Shown here piece by piece: positions 20,546-26,362 of a stretch of 64,000 bases of DNA. Position 1 is the first letter of the stretch, and each line of letters opens with the position of its first letter. The notes under the pieces were generated by a model that searched no databases, was not told the DNA's origin, and saw nothing but the letters and a program-made list of their open reading frames with translations. The position numbers were made by a program, and so were the translations under genes. The stretch lies in sequence record PX104378.1. One strand, given 5' to 3'. The DNA is from a phage.

Positions 20546-22789
20546 TTACAGCTTGCAAGATGAACATTCGCTAGCGTCTTCCGTACCATCAGCACCATCA
20601 CGCACGTTAGCGTAATACAGTGTCTTGAGGCCGTAATATTGAGCAAACAACATATCATCTAATACATCAGCAATATCGACTTTACCAGTCTTATAAGTGC
20701 TTGGATCGTAGGATGTATTGGAACTAATCGCCTGATCTACAAACTTCTGCATGATCGCTGCCAGTGTCAGATAAGGCTTGTTACCTTTCTTGATCAGTGT
20801 CCAAAGCAGGTCAATAACATCAGCATTATTCTCTACGTTCGGAATAACCTGATTAAATTGCCCTTCTTTCGATCCTTTAACCGATACAATCCCGCGAGGC
20901 GGTTCAATACCGTTTGTACTGTTAGACACCTGAGAAGACGACTCACAAGGCATCAGCGCCGAAAGCGTACTGTTACGAATGCCATATTTTTTCAGGTCTT
21001 CGCGCAGTTCTTCCCAATCCATCTCATACACCGGGTCAACCAGTTCATCTACTGTCTTTTTGTACCAGTCGATAGGCAGTTCACCGCGTCCATAACGTGT
21101 TTCGTGTATCAGTTCGCAAGCACCTTTCTCTTTAGCCAGTTGCACACTAGCCTTAATCAGAGCATATTGCAAGCGTTCAAACGTTTTATGCGTAAACTCG
21201 TTAGCGTCTTCATATGTGAAGAAATTATCCGCCAGATATGATGCAAAGTTAGTCACACCAACACCCAGAGAGCGACGTTTTTTGGCTGTCAGAGCTTGTT
21301 CTACAGGATAATCCTGATAATCTAACAGGTTGTCAAGTGCACGCACCATAACCATAGCGATCCGCTCTACTTCTTCCATATTTTCGATATCGAAATTACC
21401 TAAAACATATGCTGCCAAAGTACATAGGCTGATCTCTGAATCATCACGACCCATCGGTTTTGTCGGCAGAGCAATTTCACAACACAGGTTAGATTGTTTA
21501 ATCGGTGCTACATTACGAATAAACGCCCCGTGATTGTTCATGTTGTCTGTGAACGCTGGATAGATTCGACCAGTGTTAAAACGTTCAATTGCCACCGCTA
21601 AAAACAGGTCTTCGGCTTTAACACGAGTTTTACGAACACTCGGATCTTTTTCCAGTTTTTCGTAAAGCTGGCGGAAACCTTCCTCATCTCGGAAGTACAG
21701 ATCCCACAACAAGCCACCCGCAACATCTGGACTAAACAGAGTAATGTAATCCCGTTTAAGGAATCGCTCTACCATCAGGTTATTAATCTGTACGCCGTAG
21801 TCAAGATGGCGAATGCGGTTATCTTCCACGCCCTTATTGTTCTTTAACACAATCAGACTTTCAAACTCTAAATGCCACATTGGGTAATAGAGTGTCGCTG
21901 CCCCGCCACGAATACCGCCTTGTGAGCATGACTTAACGGCAGTCTGAAAATGTTTCCAGAATGGGATAACGCCAGTATGACGAACTTCACCATGCCCGAT
22001 CTTAGATCCTTCCGCGCGAATCATACCAGCATTGATACCGATGCCAGCACGCTTGCTAATATACTTGATGATTGCATTTGCGGTTTCATTAATACCCTGC
22101 AATGAATCATCAGATTCGATCACCACACACGAACTAAATTGTCGTGTTGGAGTACGCACACCAGCCATAATCGGAGTAGGCAGAGAGATTTGCTTATTCG
22201 CAACAGCATTATAAAAATCAATCACATGTTCAAGTCGATTTTCTGTCTCTTCTTGATGCAAGCACATACCGATCAGCATATACGCAAATTGCGGTGTTTC
22301 GATGATTTTCTTAGTGCTGCGATCCTGAACAAGATACTTCTCTTTTAACTGCATTGCACCCGCATAGGTCATTTTAAAATCAAGTTTATGGTCGATGAAT
22401 TTCTCCAGATATTCCACTTCTTCACGGGAATATTTTTGCAGAATTTCGCGATCATATTTTCCGGTTGCAATATTACGCTCAATATGGCTATAAAAATCAA
22501 TAGGTTGGAATTGACCGTATACTGATTTACGAAGTGCGAACATTGCAAGGTTACTTGCTACATATTGATAATCAGGTGTTTCTACAGTAATGTTATCTGC
22601 GGCGACCTTAATCAATACTTTCTGGATATCATTGGTAGACATACCTTCTGTCAGAAGTGGTTCAACCATATCAAACAATTCATATGGATCAACGTTATGA
22701 CCTTCGGCTGCCGCTTCCAGAATTTTCATTACTTTTTCTTTTTCAAACGGAACAGTCAGACCGGAAGACTTAACAACATTTTTAATCAT
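20546..22789 (-). CDS. nrdA: ribonucleotide reductase alpha subunit
   Basis: 747 aa (T4 NrdA about 754); N-terminal ATP-cone; C-terminal Cys pair in SECSSCKL. Confidence 0.9.
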   Translation of the reverse strand: MIKNVVKSSGLTVPFEKEKVMKILEAAAEGHNVDPYELFDMVEPLLTEGMSTNDIQKVLIKVAADNITVETPDYQYVASNLAMFALRKSVYGQFQPIDFYSHIERNIATGKYDREILQKYSREEVEYLEKFIDHKLDFKMTYAGAMQLKEKYLVQDRSTKKIIETPQFAYMLIGMCLHQEETENRLEHVIDFYNAVANKQISLPTPIMAGVRTPTRQFSSCVVIESDDSLQGINETANAIIKYISKRAGIGINAGMIRAEGSKIGHGEVRHTGVIPFWKHFQTAVKSCSQGGIRGGAATLYYPMWHLEFESLIVLKNNKGVEDNRIRHLDYGVQINNLMVERFLKRDYITLFSPDVAGGLLWDLYFRDEEGFRQLYEKLEKDPSVRKTRVKAEDLFLAVAIERFNTGRIYPAFTDNMNNHGAFIRNVAPIKQSNLCCEIALPTKPMGRDDSEISLCTLAAYVLGNFDIENMEEVERIAMVMVRALDNLLDYQDYPVEQALTAKKRRSLGVGVTNFASYLADNFFTYEDANEFTHKTFERLQYALIKASVQLAKEKGACELIHETRYGRGELPIDWYKKTVDELVDPVYEMDWEELREDLKKYGIRNSTLSALMPCESSSQVSNSTNGIEPPRGIVSVKGSKEGQFNQVIPNVENNADVIDLLWTLIKKGNKPYLTLAAIMQKFVDQAISSNTSYDPSTYKTGKVDIADVLDDMLFAQYYGLKTLYYANVRDGADGTEDASECSSCKL

Positions 22790-22859
22790 ATTACCTCACT
22801 TCATATTTTAGCAGGAACAAGTTTATCCTCCATATTGGGGGGCTTTCGCCCCCTTTTGT

Positions 22860-24092
22860 TTATACTGCCATTTGAGCGGTGATTGCTGGATGGCTTTGAT
22901 AGTTGTGAATTTTAAAGTCTTTCGGAGTCTTTGTCAATACCTCATCTAAAGATTTAAATTCCGGCAACTCAATTGTTGGTTTATCAAACGGAACACGGCT
23001 TAACTGTTCAATAACTTGATCAAAATGGTTTTTGTAAATGTGAGTATCTCCACCAGAGAAAATCAGTTCTCCTACCTCAAGATCACACATTTTCGCTATG
23101 ATGTGAGTTAACAGCGCATAGCTGGCAACATTAAAGGGCAAGCCCAAAAAGCTGTCTACGCTTCGCTGAAACCACATACAAGACAGTTTACCTTCATTGA
23201 CATAGAATTGCACGAACGGATGACATACACCTAATACAGCATTATGTGTTCCTTGTACGTTCCATGAGTCAATAATGATCCGGCGATCCGTTGGATTGTT
23301 TTTAATTTGTTCAATCACGTTTTGTAATTGGTCTTCCCAAATCTTCGGGCGATAGACATATTCTTCATCGTCTTTAGTGCTCGATGTGTCTACGTCCATA
23401 CTAGCAAAAATCGTGGTATCTGGTGCTAAAATATCCCCACCCAGATAATCACTATCAAGTAGATAACCGAAATAACCATCATCTACCCATTCCTGGAATC
23501 CCCACAAGCAATATGCATCATTAACAAAATTAGATTGAGTCTTCCAGTGGTCTGCTACTAAGAATAGATTATATTCAGAATCAAACTCTTCATAACGCAT
23601 ACCACGCCAGATAGCACATAAACGGTCTTCTGTGTCGTTGGTTGGCGTAAAGTCTTCTACCCACGGGTGTTTAAATGTATGTGTATATTTGCTCTTAACG
23701 CGCTTAATTTTGATTTCACCGTGTGGGTGAATCGGTTTGCGTCGCCACGCCATACCATACATATTGCCGACATTATAACCATTGAATCGCAAAGGATTCT
23801 TTTCTTTCATATCAAGACAGTTGCCGCGCCAAATGTCGAAGGCTTCTTCGTCAAACTTACCGCGTGTAATTTCCTGTAAGCGACGGCGGTCAAGTGATCC
23901 CTCCATAAACCATATCAACTCGCCAATTACAGAGGCTGTAGCCATCTTTTTAGTGGTCAGTAAGGGGAAACCCTTTCTTAAATCAATTCGCATCTCTGCG
24001 CCGAATTTAGAGAGCGTACCTACCCCCGTGCGGTCTTCACGAGGCCAGCCATTATCAAGAACATCACGCAACAGTTTCAAATATTCTTTCAT
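22860..24092 (-). CDS. td: thymidylate synthase with large internal insertion
   Basis: 410 aa; TS motifs DRTGVGT, TTKK, DRRIIIDSWN, VCHPFVQFYV, GLPFNVASYALL; about 115 extra residues between the YG.AWRR and QLQNVIEQIK blocks. Confidence 0.8.
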   Translation of the reverse strand: MKEYLKLLRDVLDNGWPREDRTGVGTLSKFGAEMRIDLRKGFPLLTTKKMATASVIGELIWFMEGSLDRRRLQEITRGKFDEEAFDIWRGNCLDMKEKNPLRFNGYNVGNMYGMAWRRKPIHPHGEIKIKRVKSKYTHTFKHPWVEDFTPTNDTEDRLCAIWRGMRYEEFDSEYNLFLVADHWKTQSNFVNDAYCLWGFQEWVDDGYFGYLLDSDYLGGDILAPDTTIFASMDVDTSSTKDDEEYVYRPKIWEDQLQNVIEQIKNNPTDRRIIIDSWNVQGTHNAVLGVCHPFVQFYVNEGKLSCMWFQRSVDSFLGLPFNVASYALLTHIIAKMCDLEVGELIFSGGDTHIYKNHFDQVIEQLSRVPFDKPTIELPEFKSLDEVLTKTPKDFKIHNYQSHPAITAQMAV

Positions 24093-24333
24093 CCCACATC
24101 ACCTTTTTCTTATTGATTGCTTTCTTACGCAGTTTTGCGACTGTCTCGTCAATATCGATAAAGACAACGCCAGGATCGAATACAGTAACAGGTCTTGAAA
24201 TGTCGCTATTTTCCTGTACTGGAAGCCATGACGCTTTAGCTTCATCATAGAGATATTGTAACCCGTAATAATCTACGGCTACTGCGTAGTTTTCACTGGT
24301 AGCTGACCATAATTGAATAATGGTTATTTTCAT
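24064..24333 (-). CDS. hypothetical protein (89 aa)
   Basis: ORF overlapping td start by 29 nt; start taken at MKITIIQ. Confidence 0.4.
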   Translation of the reverse strand: MKITIIQLWSATSENYAVAVDYYGLQYLYDEAKASWLPVQENSDISRPVTVFDPGVVFIDIDETVAKLRKKAINKKKVMWDERIFETVA

Positions 24334-24425
24334 TATTGTTCCCGTCCACAATGTAAACACCGACTACCAGCAAACATCAAAGATTCACCACAATGTTTGC
24401 ACTCATAATCTGTCAGAATTTTCAT
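24333..24425 (-). CDS. tiny zinc-ribbon peptide (30 aa)
   Basis: MKILTDYECKHCGESLMFAGSRCLHCGREQ (two CxxC pairs); 1-nt overlaps with both neighbours; speculative. Confidence 0.3.
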   Translation of the reverse strand: MKILTDYECKHCGESLMFAGSRCLHCGREQ

Positions 24426-24426
24426 G

Positions 24427-24996
24427 TTACGCCTTCTTACGTTCCAAAATTTGCTCACTGATCAGGTAATTATCAAGGAAGTAATTATGTTCTTCTTTGG
24501 TTACAAAGTCAAAATATAATTCCTGAATCATTTCCTTAGAGATACCAACATCATATTCAAATGGATCGTTGATTCCTGAACGTTGAACATACGTTAACAC
24601 AATACGGTCCGAAAAGTCAACCGCTTTTTCAATCAGGGAAGGTCCACCGATAACACTTACCAAACCTTGCGTTTTCTCCAGGACTTTTAACAGATCCTTT
24701 AATTCAATTCCAGTATACACATCTGGTTGGTCGCCGTTTTTGGCTTTCGGTGTCGGCTTGCTGGCATCGGTACTAATAACCACATTCACACGACCTTCCA
24801 GTGCTTTAGGAAGACTTTCAAAGGTATTACGTCCCATTACAACCGCCGCAAGACCAACATCTCCCATAGTGCGCATTTTAAAGTTTTCCATATCTTTTTT
24901 GATTGGACGACCCCACGGTAAACCGCCTTTAAAACCAAACGCCCAATTTTCATCTGACATTTTAGTGTCACCAATCGCAAATACACATTGAATCAT
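24427..24996 (-). CDS. frd: dihydrofolate reductase
   Basis: 189 aa; GGLPWGRPIKKDMENFK, VVMGRNTFESLP, VIGGPSLIEKA (DHFR motifs). Confidence 0.85.
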   Translation of the reverse strand: MIQCVFAIGDTKMSDENWAFGFKGGLPWGRPIKKDMENFKMRTMGDVGLAAVVMGRNTFESLPKALEGRVNVVISTDASKPTPKAKNGDQPDVYTGIELKDLLKVLEKTQGLVSVIGGPSLIEKAVDFSDRIVLTYVQRSGINDPFEYDVGISKEMIQELYFDFVTKEEHNYFLDNYLISEQILERKKA

Positions 24997-25715: not shown

Positions 25716-25743
25716 TATTATACAATACTATGTTACTTTGTCA
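25716..25743 (-). promoter_or_regulatory. sigma70-type early promoter cassette
   Basis: TTGACA-N16-TATAAT on minus strand. Confidence 0.5.
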
Positions 25744-26362
25744 ACTCTTTTTCAAAAGATTTTACGATATACATGATAGTGCTCAATTCGGACGGTGCTA
25801 CTGTTTCTGTGTAGCCATCCGGCATATCTTTTTTTGAGATATAGGAAGTTTTACCTTTCATCGCTTCCTTGATCTTGTTCTCTAATTCTAAGATCTTTTG
25901 ACCGTCTTGTAAAGTCAATTCATAAAAGATCTCATGGTCGAATTTAGAAACACGAGATTGGTCTTTCATTCGTGCTTTAGTTGTTAAGTTAGTTATTCCA
26001 AATTTAACACCAACAAAATTATTATTGTTGATTAGTCTCTGGATATACAGAGTTCCAATTTTTAATGTATTGTATCCATAGTGGGCACATTTAGGGCAAC
26101 GTCTTCCTTTCTGAAACTCCATTATTGGTTGAGTGTATGTATGCCCTTCGCTACATGTCAAATTTAATTTTGTCTTATTACCTTTCCATTCTCCAATGAA
26201 TCCATTGAAGGTTATATTTTCTTTTTCAAAGACTGGTTTCAATCTTTCATAATATTCAATTGGCGATATAGAACGATTGCTTTTTCTTACCCATTCAATC
26301 TCATGTGCTTGACGTACTAACATAATTTTATCCTCCGTTGTTTCGATGAGTTCATTATACAT
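25733..26362 (-). CDS. Zn-finger protein, possibly nuclease-like (209 aa)
   Basis: CSEGH ... CPKCAH Cys/His cluster, then LYIQRL ... GVKFGIT block loosely resembling GIY-YIG. Confidence 0.45.
   Translation of the reverse strand: MYNELIETTEDKIMLVRQAHEIEWVRKSNRSISPIEYYERLKPVFEKENITFNGFIGEWKGNKTKLNLTCSEGHTYTQPIMEFQKGRRCPKCAHYGYNTLKIGTLYIQRLINNNNFVGVKFGITNLTTKARMKDQSRVSKFDHEIFYELTLQDGQKILELENKIKEAMKGKTSYISKKDMPDGYTETVAPSELSTIMYIVKSFEKELTK

What the first reader, a model, noticed from the sequence alone, without database searches (positions are those of the whole stretch)
23390..23750. Thymidylate synthase carries an insertion of about 115 aa in an otherwise canonical fold
All TS signature blocks are present and in order, but between the YG.AWRR block and the QLQNVIEQIKNNPTDRR block there are about 120 residues where T4 Td and E. 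coli ThyA have about 10. The insert has no stop codon and no intein-like boundaries (no Cys/Ser start, no HN end), and is acidic and aromatic-rich, so it looks like an inserted domain rather than an intron or intein.
Basis: partly seen in the sequence, partly recalled or inferred. Interest (0 to 1): 0.55.

Follow-up and report, generated by a model that had tools for sequence, protein, structure and literature searches.

The report
Fossil homing-endonuclease domain inside thymidylate synthase
The phage's thymidylate synthase really does carry one extra 126-residue domain in a surface loop, and it is the worn-down, in-frame and unspliced remnant of a homing-endonuclease-like module that many other phage thymidylate synthases carry in fuller form at the same spot.

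Summary
The td gene (window 22860-24092, minus strand, 410 aa) of this RB49-like Krischvirus has a single block of about 126 residues (TS 126-251; window 23340-23717). It lies between WRRKPIHPHG and WEDQLQ, where E. coli ThyA has 'RH'.

The block is neither an intron nor an intein. It folds on its own as a compact domain (AF2 pLDDT 94). It is homologous to larger inserts at the same site in other phage TS proteins, such as Klebsiella phage phiKp_21 and Vibrio phage D69. At least 136 clusters at 50% identity carry such an insert. The larger inserts are in turn homologous to free-standing phage 'IPA-HNH' putative homing endonucleases.

The window's copy is trimmed and degenerate:
- It has lost the N- and C-terminal parts and four Cys.
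- It has lost the invariant R, EE, K (of DKD), Y and N.
- Its core is strongly acidic (net -19).

It is therefore almost certainly not a nuclease. It evolves under purifying but relaxed selection (omega 0.13-0.3).

In Alcyoneusvirus, phages with and without the insert are 95-100% identical around td. Identity drops steeply toward the insertion site, which looks like a gene-conversion footprint.

I found no paper describing this. I rate it a new variant of a known kind, interest about 0.6.

The parts
22860..24092 (-). td gene: thymidylate synthase (ThyA type), 410 aa plus stop, with a nested domain
   Evidence: ORF list. PF00303 E 4e-84 in two stretches. E. coli ThyA structures E 2e-68. 98% nt identity to RB49 td.
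23718..24092 (-). TS core, N-terminal part (residues 1-125), ending ...YGMAWRRKPIHPHG
   Evidence: Aligns to E. coli ThyA 1-106. Invariants R21, E58, W88, Y112, W116 and R117 are present.
23340..23717 (-). Nested domain (residues 126-251, 126 aa): a degenerate, trimmed IPA-HNH-like module
   Evidence: Single-block gap against insert-less TS. tblastn of the insert gives E 1e-11 to the phiKp_21 TS insert and 7e-6 to the D69 TS insert. An HMM built only from long TS inserts hits about TS 130-243 at E 6e-19, the only hit among 1018 six-frame segments. AF2 pLDDT 93.9. Best BFVD fold matches are insert-bearing phage TS proteins and small homing-endonuclease-like proteins.
23703..23735 (-). Predicted N-terminal stalk strand (TS 120-130, PIHPHGEIKIK)
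   Evidence: AF2 secondary structure E3-13 of the 136-aa model, whose residue 1 is TS R118. The 'P.PHG....I.R' pattern is conserved in all insert-bearing TS.
23337..23360 (-). Predicted C-terminal stalk strand (TS 245-252, YVYRPKIW)
   Evidence: AF2 E128-135. 'V.RP.I' is conserved across insert-bearing TS.
23448..23456 (-). D213-S214-D215, the degenerate form of the family-invariant D-K-D motif
   Evidence: D96-K97-D98 is invariant in 116 of 116 free-standing relatives. The window has D-S-D.
23478..23519 (-). DAYCLWGFQEWVDD (TS 192-205), a signature segment shared by TS-nested modules
   Evidence: Ten residues (model positions 75-84) are present in all 24 other TS inserts and absent in 115 of 116 free-standing relatives.
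22860..23339 (-). TS core, C-terminal part (residues 252-410 plus stop), WEDQLQNVIEQIKNNPTDRR... with catalytic C290
   Evidence: Aligns to E. coli ThyA 110-264 with 165 bits. Invariants D254, R270, R271, C290, H291, R310, D313, N321, H351 and Y353 are present.

Best explanation
The extra residues form one independently folding domain in the surface loop of thymidylate synthase that corresponds to E. coli W101-I109. The domain is translated in frame and is not removed at the RNA or protein level (inferred). By descent it is the HNH-like core of an 'IPA-HNH' type homing-endonuclease module. Such a module became nested in frame in a phage td gene and is found at exactly this site, in fuller form, in many other phage TS proteins. 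The fuller form has an N-terminal beta domain, an HNH-like core and a C-terminal AP2-like part.

In the Krischvirus lineage the flanking DNA-binding parts were deleted. The core lost its four Cys and most family-invariant polar residues, and it became strongly acidic. It can therefore no longer bind or cut DNA (inferred). What remains is a folded passenger domain on an apparently active TS. Two terminal strands, predicted at its two ends, are inferred to pair as a stalk that closes the loop.

The domain persists because only a precise deletion would restore a working loop. Misfolding of an internal domain would also damage an important enzyme. A new role is possible as well. In short, this is the late 'fossil' stage of a homing-element life cycle, played out inside a protein without splicing.
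For: Shown:
- A single block at one loop.
- Not an intron or intein.
- A robust chain of homology. The window insert matches the phiKp_21 and D69 TS inserts (tblastn 1e-11 and 7e-6). A long-insert-only HMM hits the window at 6e-19. The long inserts match PHROG 'HNH endonuclease' families at 1.7e-33, 1e-25 and 2e-20. A free-standing-only HMM hits the long inserts at 1e-15 to 1e-29.
- Free-standing relatives sit in classic homing-endonuclease slots: after DNA polymerase, between terminase pieces, and between nrdA and nrdB. 29 of about 116 carry an AP2 domain. One is an ICP1 ORF downstream of the DNA polymerase gene, consistent with (but not confirmed as) gp59 of the IPA-HNH family of Barth, Dunham & Seed 2023 (PMC10448857).
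- Degeneration: the window keeps 12 of 23 family-invariant positions, mostly hydrophobic. It has R51E, C52E, C60F, C63A, E65H, K97S, Y105L, C110T and N118D. Long TS inserts keep 14-19.
- Charge is -19, against a median of +5 in free-standing relatives.
- Purifying but relaxed selection: omega 0.13-0.3 in most pairs (extremes 0.06 and 0.71 in low-count pairs) against 0.01-0.17 in the core.
- Mobility of the fuller form. phiKp_21 (insert) and Muenster (no insert) are 95-100% identical in flanking genes. Identity falls to 55-58% next to the insert and recovers at the gene ends. RaK2, K64-1 and Muenster have an empty td. A second syntenic pair differs by a clean block of about 840 bp.
- Prevalence: 136 of the best 150 cluster representatives (50% identity) are insert-bearing.
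Against: - A profile of free-standing relatives alone does not detect the window insert (E 1.6), so the link is transitive.
- The HNH assignment of the whole family is weak in my hands. There is no Pfam HNH hit, hhalign against I-HmuI is not significant, Foldseek against PDB finds nothing, and the family lacks the canonical catalytic His.
- No member has published nuclease or homing data that I found.
- All TS-nested modules, including the long ones, lack the free-standing family's invariant E64-E65 pair and C60. Even the long forms may therefore be inactive, and the mosaic td could reflect recombination driven by something else.
- Absence of splicing is inferred from sequence, not from protein or RNA data.
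- The insert is fixed in all Krischvirus records and omega is below 1, which fits an acquired function as well as mere tolerance.
- No full-length model was obtained, so the geometry relative to the active site and dimer interface is unverified (one search failed).
Confidence: 0.78

Rival explanations
1. Exapted domain. The remnant has acquired a new, selected function in Krischvirus TS. Its acidic, aromatic-rich surface could mediate protein-protein contacts (for instance in the T4-type dNTP-synthesising complex) or act as a nucleic-acid mimic. This overlaps with the best explanation on origin and differs only on why the domain is kept.
For: The insert is fixed in all 59 Krischvirus records and in metagenomic relatives with core identity of only 62-67% (P0003-P0006). 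Omega is 0.13-0.3, not about 1. Clade-specific motifs are strongly conserved (DAYCLWGFQEWVD, GGDI(L/I)APDT, YVYRPKIW). Charge has shifted wholesale from basic to -19.
Against: The insert evolves faster than the core (47-54% against 66-67% identity in P0003-P0005). It carries a 4-codon indel polymorphism and is further eroded in P0006. A fold constraint on an internal domain can by itself keep omega below 1. No partner or activity is known.
Confidence: 0.3
2. The window's insert is still an active homing endonuclease that works as part of the TS polypeptide.
For: It descends from a homing-endonuclease-like family.
Against: It has lost 11 of 23 family-invariant positions, including the K of DKD, R51, Y105, N118 and all four Cys. 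It lacks the N-terminal and AP2-like parts. Net charge is -19. There is no presence/absence polymorphism within Krischvirus.
Confidence: 0.03
3. An intein, or a group I intron hidden by an in-frame read-through or a sequencing frameshift.
For: T4 td famously has a group I intron, and phage nucleotide-metabolism genes host inteins (background knowledge). A sibling jumbo phage, RCIP0023, has td split by an 'intron-associated endonuclease' gene at a different site.
Against: No Rfam hit at E<=1. The 378-nt frame is open and conserved in 59 genomes, with omega below 1. There is protein-level homology to other proteins. No Hint domain is found at E<=10. The insert has no nucleophile at either junction and no terminal His-Asn (sequence). 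No alternative-frame ORF longer than 41 aa (same strand) or 70 aa (opposite strand) overlaps it. Nolan et al. 2006 also found no group I introns in RB49 (PMC1524935).
Confidence: 0.02
4. A lineage-specific elaboration of the variable TS 'small domain' loops, unrelated to mobile elements (like the 50-aa L. casei insert or the eukaryotic inserts).
For: This loop tolerates indels. Muenster TS has about 35 extra residues and P0028 about 25 at the same place. By my recollection, the second eukaryotic insert maps to the same loop.
Against: There is significant homology to modules that match free-standing homing-endonuclease-like families. A related module sits at a different TS loop in phage PTm5. 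There are presence/absence pairs and a mosaic td.
Confidence: 0.03

Closest known systems
[quoted passage not shown]
   Same: The insert's core descends from the same HNH-like domain (W..M..RCY ... VC.EW..F.NF ... LDKD..GNK.YSPE.C.F....N). Long TS-nested versions also keep the N-terminal beta region and a C-terminal AP2-like stretch.
   Different: The insert is nested in frame inside an enzyme instead of being a free-standing gene. The window copy lacks AP2, the N-terminal part, four Cys and R51/EE/K97/Y105/N118, and it is acidic. TS-nested copies have an extra 10-residue 'LWGFQE' segment. The paper does not mention thymidylate synthase and states that T4 has no IPA-HNH genes.
ShiLan domain and the lone LAGLIDADG insertion in an actinobacteriophage DNA methylase (Arsenault, Gosselin & Gogarten 2025, PMC11855218)
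   Same: An insertion read in frame with the host gene, with no detectable intein or intron, and predicted to stick out from the host protein. Its distribution is disjunct, suggesting homing.
   Different: In ShiLan the HNH endonuclease is encoded in another reading frame, and the in-frame product is poorly structured. Here the endonuclease-like domain is itself the in-frame product and folds confidently. No hidden ORF is present. The host gene here is td.
Inteins and mini-inteins (homing cycle: invasion, fixation, endonuclease decay, loss)
   Same: An in-frame selfish insertion in a conserved enzyme. There are size classes that look like stepwise loss of endonuclease parts, and sporadic presence among close relatives.
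   Different: There is no Hint splicing domain and no splice-junction residues. The passenger apparently stays in the mature enzyme (sequence).
T4 td group I intron with I-TevI, and free-standing mobE between nrdA and nrdB
   Same: The same gene neighbourhood (frd-td-nrdA) is a known target of homing elements. The divergence profile around the phiKp_21 insert resembles co-conversion of flanking exon sequence (background knowledge).
   Different: Those elements are removed as RNA or lie between genes. Their endonuclease families differ (GIY-YIG, canonical HNH), and so does their site in td.
Known length variation of ThyA: the L. casei 50-residue small-domain insert and the eukaryotic inserts
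   Same: Surface loops of the small-domain region tolerate extra residues without loss of activity (background knowledge).
   Different: The L. casei insert lies upstream of the YG.QWR block. That is the site used in phage PTm5, not in this window. Those inserts are not related to nucleases.

Membership tests
Thymidylate synthase ThyA (PF00303) | Profile match above the curated threshold over the whole fold | tested here: met
   282 bits against a cut-off of 24.3, in two stretches that together cover the profile. E. coli, L. casei and T4 TS structures match at E 1e-65 to 1e-68.
Thymidylate synthase ThyA (PF00303) | Catalytic and substrate-binding residues (E. coli R21, E58, Y94, R126/R127, C146, R166, D169, N177, H207, Y209) | tested here: met
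   All are present as R21, E58, Y112, R270/R271, C290, R310, D313, N321, H351 and Y353. Enzyme activity itself was not tested.
IPA-HNH homing endonucleases | Homology of the HNH-like core domain | tested here: inconclusive
   Homology is transitive and strong through the long TS inserts. The direct free-standing profile against the window gives E 1.6.
IPA-HNH homing endonucleases | Family-invariant polar and Cys residues (R51, C52, C60, C63, E64, E65, D96-K97-D98, Y105, C110, N118) | tested here: not met
   The window has E, E, F, A, D, H, D-S-D, L, T and D at these positions.
IPA-HNH homing endonucleases | C-terminal AP2 DNA-binding domain | tested here: not met
   No AP2 hit and no sequence after the core. 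AP2 is found in 29 free-standing members.
IPA-HNH homing endonucleases | Free-standing gene next to an essential gene, variably present | tested here: not met
   The module is nested inside td and fixed in all 59 Krischvirus records.
IPA-HNH homing endonucleases | Site-specific DNA cleavage and homing | not testable with these tools
   This needs biochemistry or phage crosses. I found no published evidence for any member.
Canonical HNH / beta-beta-alpha-Me nucleases | Recognisable HNH profile with the catalytic His | tested here: not met
Intein | Hint domain blocks; N-terminal Cys/Ser; C-terminal His-Asn followed by Cys/Ser/Thr | tested here: not met
   No Hint-type Pfam hit at E<=10. The junctions read G125|E126 and K250-I251|W252 (sequence).
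Group I intron | Covariance-model match; interruption of the reading frame | tested here: not met
   No Rfam match at gathering score in the window, or at E<=1 in 22700-24300. The frame is open, with omega below 1.
ShiLan-type hidden-endonuclease insertion | Endonuclease ORF in an alternative frame of the in-frame insertion | tested here: not met
   Only a 41-aa (same strand) and a 70-aa (opposite strand) ORF overlap the insert.

The most novel reading that the evidence does not exclude
The full-size versions (phiKp_21 type, 500-590-aa TS) may be a fourth lifestyle of homing endonucleases, beside intron-borne, intein-borne and free-standing ones. In this reading the nuclease-like module lives permanently as an internal domain of a working enzyme. 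As a TS fusion protein, it would cleave empty td alleles in co-infecting phages and copy itself in by gene conversion without any splicing. The Krischvirus insert would then be the fixed, decayed end stage of that cycle, possibly re-used as an acidic interaction domain.
Probability: 0.3. Interest if true: 0.8.

Novelty: new variant of a known kind. Interest (0 to 1): 0.6.

Why it matters
Selfish homing elements are thought to survive inside essential genes by splicing themselves out, as introns or inteins. Here a homing-endonuclease-like module appears to survive in a conserved enzyme simply by sitting in a permissive surface loop, and it does so in well over a hundred distinct phage TS lineages.

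Full, medium and short forms coexist, and sibling phages differ only by the insert. Together they give a natural series for studying how such elements invade, decay and perhaps get co-opted.

Practically, it explains why Krischvirus Td is 410 aa. It corrects annotations that call such TS genes 'HNH endonuclease' or 'hypothetical protein'. It also marks a TS loop that tolerates insertions of 126 to about 280 residues, which is useful for protein engineering.

Tried and rejected
- Insert alone against Pfam (E<=10): nothing.
- Insert alone in the word-indexed protein search: no candidates. This is a sensitivity limit of the index, since the full-length query later found relatives.
- PHROGs with the window insert: only E 0.65 to phrog_2081.
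- Single-sequence AF2 of the whole TS: pLDDT 37, unusable. I therefore have no full-length model and cannot state the insert's geometry relative to the active site.
- Profile of the family against PDB sequences: nothing.
- Foldseek against PDB: nothing.
- hhalign of the family against I-HmuI: not significant.
- Free-standing-only HMM against the window: not significant.
- Rfam on RCIP0023 td: no intron model hit, so the 'intron' there rests on the record's annotation only.
- I first recalled the L. casei 50-aa insert as the same site. Alignment shows that site lies upstream of the YG.QWR block, so it is a different loop.
- Junction microhomology in the P0024/P0033 pair: nothing informative.
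- Literature searches found no description of the td insert: RB49 + thymidylate synthase + insertion; HNH + ThyA; Krischvirus; in-frame homing endonuclease; IPA-HNH.

Full report
**What is there**

The window is an RB49-like Krischvirus, a T4-type coliphage. The td region is 97-98.5% identical to RB49 and its relatives, and 59 phage records carry the same full-length gene. td is the 410-aa ORF at 22860-24092 on the minus strand. It lies in the T4 order frd (24427-24996, DHFR) - small ORF - td - nrdA (20546-22789).

Pfam's thymidylate synthase model and the solved E. coli, L. casei and T4 enzymes all match in two pieces: residues 1-82 (extending to about 117) and 254-410. Multiple alignments with insert-less TS show one contiguous block, not scattered indels. 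The window reads WRRKPIHPHG-[E126...I251]-WEDQLQ, where E. coli has WRAWPTPDG-RH-IDQI. The insert is therefore 126 residues, at window 23340-23717 (-). All catalytic and substrate-binding residues of TS are in place. The description 'acidic and aromatic-rich' is also correct: core net charge is -19 with pI 4.05, and 22 of 126 residues are F/Y/W.

**Not an intron, not an intein, no hidden gene**

- No Rfam family matches the window at gathering score, or the td region at E<=1.
- The frame is open in 59 genomes.
- Nei-Gojobori estimates on eight Krischvirus td genes give omega of 0.13-0.3 in most pairs for the insert. Extremes of 0.06 and 0.71 occur in pairs with very few substitutions. The TS core gives 0.01-0.17. 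The insert is thus selected as protein, but less tightly than the core.
- No Hint/intein model matches even at E<=10, and the junction residues are wrong for protein splicing.
- Unlike the ShiLan element (PMC11855218), no sizeable alternative-frame ORF lies inside the insert.

**It is a domain**

A single-sequence AF2 run of the whole protein failed (pLDDT 37). The insert with short flanks (TS 118-253), given an alignment of 142 relatives, was predicted with pLDDT 93.9 and pTM 0.86. The model has a helical core, a small sheet, and long strands at the two termini (TS 120-130 and 245-252). This is what one expects of a domain plugged into a loop.

**What the domain is**

The insert alone has no Pfam match. 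tblastn against phage genomes found two hits outside Krischvirus: a 'hypothetical protein' of Klebsiella jumbo phage phiKp_21 (E 1e-11) and an 'HNH endonuclease' of Vibrio phages D69/D181 (E 7e-6). Both turned out to be thymidylate synthases themselves, of 517 and 477 aa, with larger inserts (245 and 197 aa) at the same loop.

Those larger inserts match PHROG families annotated as HNH endonuclease at E 1.7e-33, 1e-25 and 2e-20. They also match more than 1000 phage genomes by tblastn. The free-standing relatives are proteins of 180-270 aa that lie in classic homing-endonuclease slots:
- after the DNA polymerase gene (ICP1, Rhizobium phage);
- between two terminase pieces (Yersinia phage fPS-50);
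- between nrdA and nrdB (Escherichia phage VEcB).

About a quarter of them carry an AP2 domain, and none has a Pfam HNH domain. This fits the 'IPA-HNH' family named by Barth, Dunham and Seed (PMC10448857). That family comprises ICP1 gp59, gp115-116 and gp209. Its HNH-like domain is detectable only by HHsearch, it has a C-terminal AP2, and it is enriched next to DNA polymerase, RNR and terminase genes. Homing has not been shown experimentally. The ICP1 ORF I retrieved lies immediately downstream of the DNA polymerase gene, so it is probably gp59, but I could not confirm that identity.

I checked the chain of homology without circularity. An HMM built only from 116 free-standing proteins hits the long TS inserts at E 1e-15 to 1e-29. 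An HMM built only from long TS inserts, with loop flanks removed, hits the window TS at about residues 130-243 with E 6e-19, and hits nothing else among 1018 six-frame segments. The free-standing HMM does not reach the window insert directly (E 1.6).

**A decay series**

Insert-bearing TS proteins come in three sizes:
- Full (about 505-613 aa in this set): N-terminal beta region, core and C-terminal AP2-like stretch.
- Medium (about 470 aa): no N-terminal region.
- Short (401-418 aa): the window type, with the core only.

Of 23 positions that are nearly invariant in the free-standing family, most long TS inserts keep 14-19 and short ones keep 8-12. One 505-aa protein, P0020, keeps only 9. The window keeps 12, mostly hydrophobic core residues. 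It has lost R51, the four Cys (52, 60, 63, 110; probably a zinc site), E65, the Lys of the invariant D-K-D, Y105 and N118.

Charge has gone from basic (free-standing median +5, pI 8.8) to -19. Short forms arose at least twice, on different TS backbones: the window clade and P0009/P0013.

All TS-nested modules share a 10-residue segment (D..(S/C)LWGFQE) that is absent from 115 of 116 free-standing relatives, so they form one lineage. All of them also lack C60 and the intact E64-E65 pair (K/R-R in most). This leaves open whether even the long forms are active.

**Signs of mobility in the fuller forms**

In the genus Alcyoneusvirus, RaK2, K64-1, Muenster and one more record have an 'empty' td. 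RCIP0023 and W12-3 have td split by about 1 kb carrying an annotated intron-associated endonuclease. phiKp_21 and KP13-7 have the in-frame module.

phiKp_21 and Muenster are 95-100% identical through the flanking genes and the first 100 nt or so of td. Identity then falls to 75-82%, 70% and 56% toward the insert. It is 55-58% for about 240 nt beyond the insert and returns to 93-95% past the stop codon. This is the profile expected if the module arrived by gene conversion together with flanking td sequence from a divergent donor.

A second pair of syntenic metagenomic phage contigs differs by a clean block of about 840 bp. Their TS cores are 83-92% identical. A related module is nested at a different TS loop in Tenacibaculum phage PTm5, which indicates an independent event.

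An exhaustive profile search of 1.84 billion cluster representatives lists 136 insert-bearing proteins (at least 390 aa) among its best 150.

**Interpretation**

The window's insert is best read as the fixed, trimmed and inactivated remnant of an in-frame, non-spliced homing-endonuclease-like module. It is retained as a folded passenger on an otherwise canonical TS. Its origin is well supported (about 0.8). Why it is retained is open: mere tolerance plus a fold constraint, or a new function suggested by fixation, omega below 1, conserved clade-specific motifs and the charge reversal. That it is still a nuclease, an intein or intron, or an unrelated loop elaboration is very unlikely in each case.

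**Novelty**

Homing endonucleases, their decay, and even unspliced in-frame insertions (the ShiLan domain and the lone LAGLIDADG in a phage methylase, PMC11855218) are known. I found no description of a nested IPA-HNH-like domain in thymidylate synthase, of the Krischvirus td insert, or of the size series. Nolan et al. 2006 noted only that RB49 has no group I introns. I class it as a new variant of a known kind. The window's own copy is a fossil, but it led to a widespread and apparently undescribed arrangement.

Noticed in passing
window 25733-26362 (-): A 209-aa ORF in a low-GC patch (0.32-0.34). It has a CapR homology domain (PF21817, E 1.7e-9) and a weak treble-clef zinc finger hit (DUF4379). 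It looks like a free-standing homing-endonuclease-type gene three ORFs upstream of frd. It may correspond to RB49ORF239c, for which Nolan et al. 2006 listed a weak DUF723 hit.
   Followed up: partly
window 24064-24360 (-): A 98-aa ORF whose end overlaps the td start by 29 nt. The same position is annotated as hypothetical RB49ORF236c in RB49. It has no Pfam match.
   Followed up: partly
L007 (phage JSE td, 347-1570) vs window 22860-23339: The C-terminal TS core of JSE is mosaic. dS is 0.42-0.67 against every other Krischvirus, where other pairs give 0.07-0.29, and many amino-acid changes cluster after the insert. This suggests recombination inside td.
   Followed up: partly
window about 23565-23580 (-), TS residues about 172-176: A four-codon indel polymorphism inside the insert among Krischvirus phages (DSEYNLF versus D----YI or DC----I).
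   Followed up: partly
L020:1201-3158 (Klebsiella phage RCIP0023); L016:2501-3430 (Muenster); L001:2455-4008 (phiKp_21): td of one jumbo-phage genus exists in three states: empty, split by about 1 kb carrying an annotated 'intron-associated endonuclease 1', and carrying the in-frame module. Rfam did not detect a group I intron in RCIP0023.
   Followed up: partly
L017:2108-3691 (Tenacibaculum phage PTm5): A 527-aa TS/pyrimidine hydroxymethylase-like protein with a related endonuclease-like module nested in a different loop, upstream of the YG.QW block. It also has further large insertions downstream of the catalytic Cys.
   Followed up: partly
L002:2638-4071 (Vibrio phage D69) and L001:2455-4008 (phiKp_21): Insert-bearing TS genes are annotated as 'HNH endonuclease' and 'hypothetical protein' respectively. 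These are probably annotation errors caused by the nested module.
   Followed up: yes
L016:2501-3430 (Muenster TS) and P0028: Insert-less phage TS proteins still carry unrelated extra segments of about 25-35 residues in the same loop, so the loop is a general indel hot spot.
   Followed up: no
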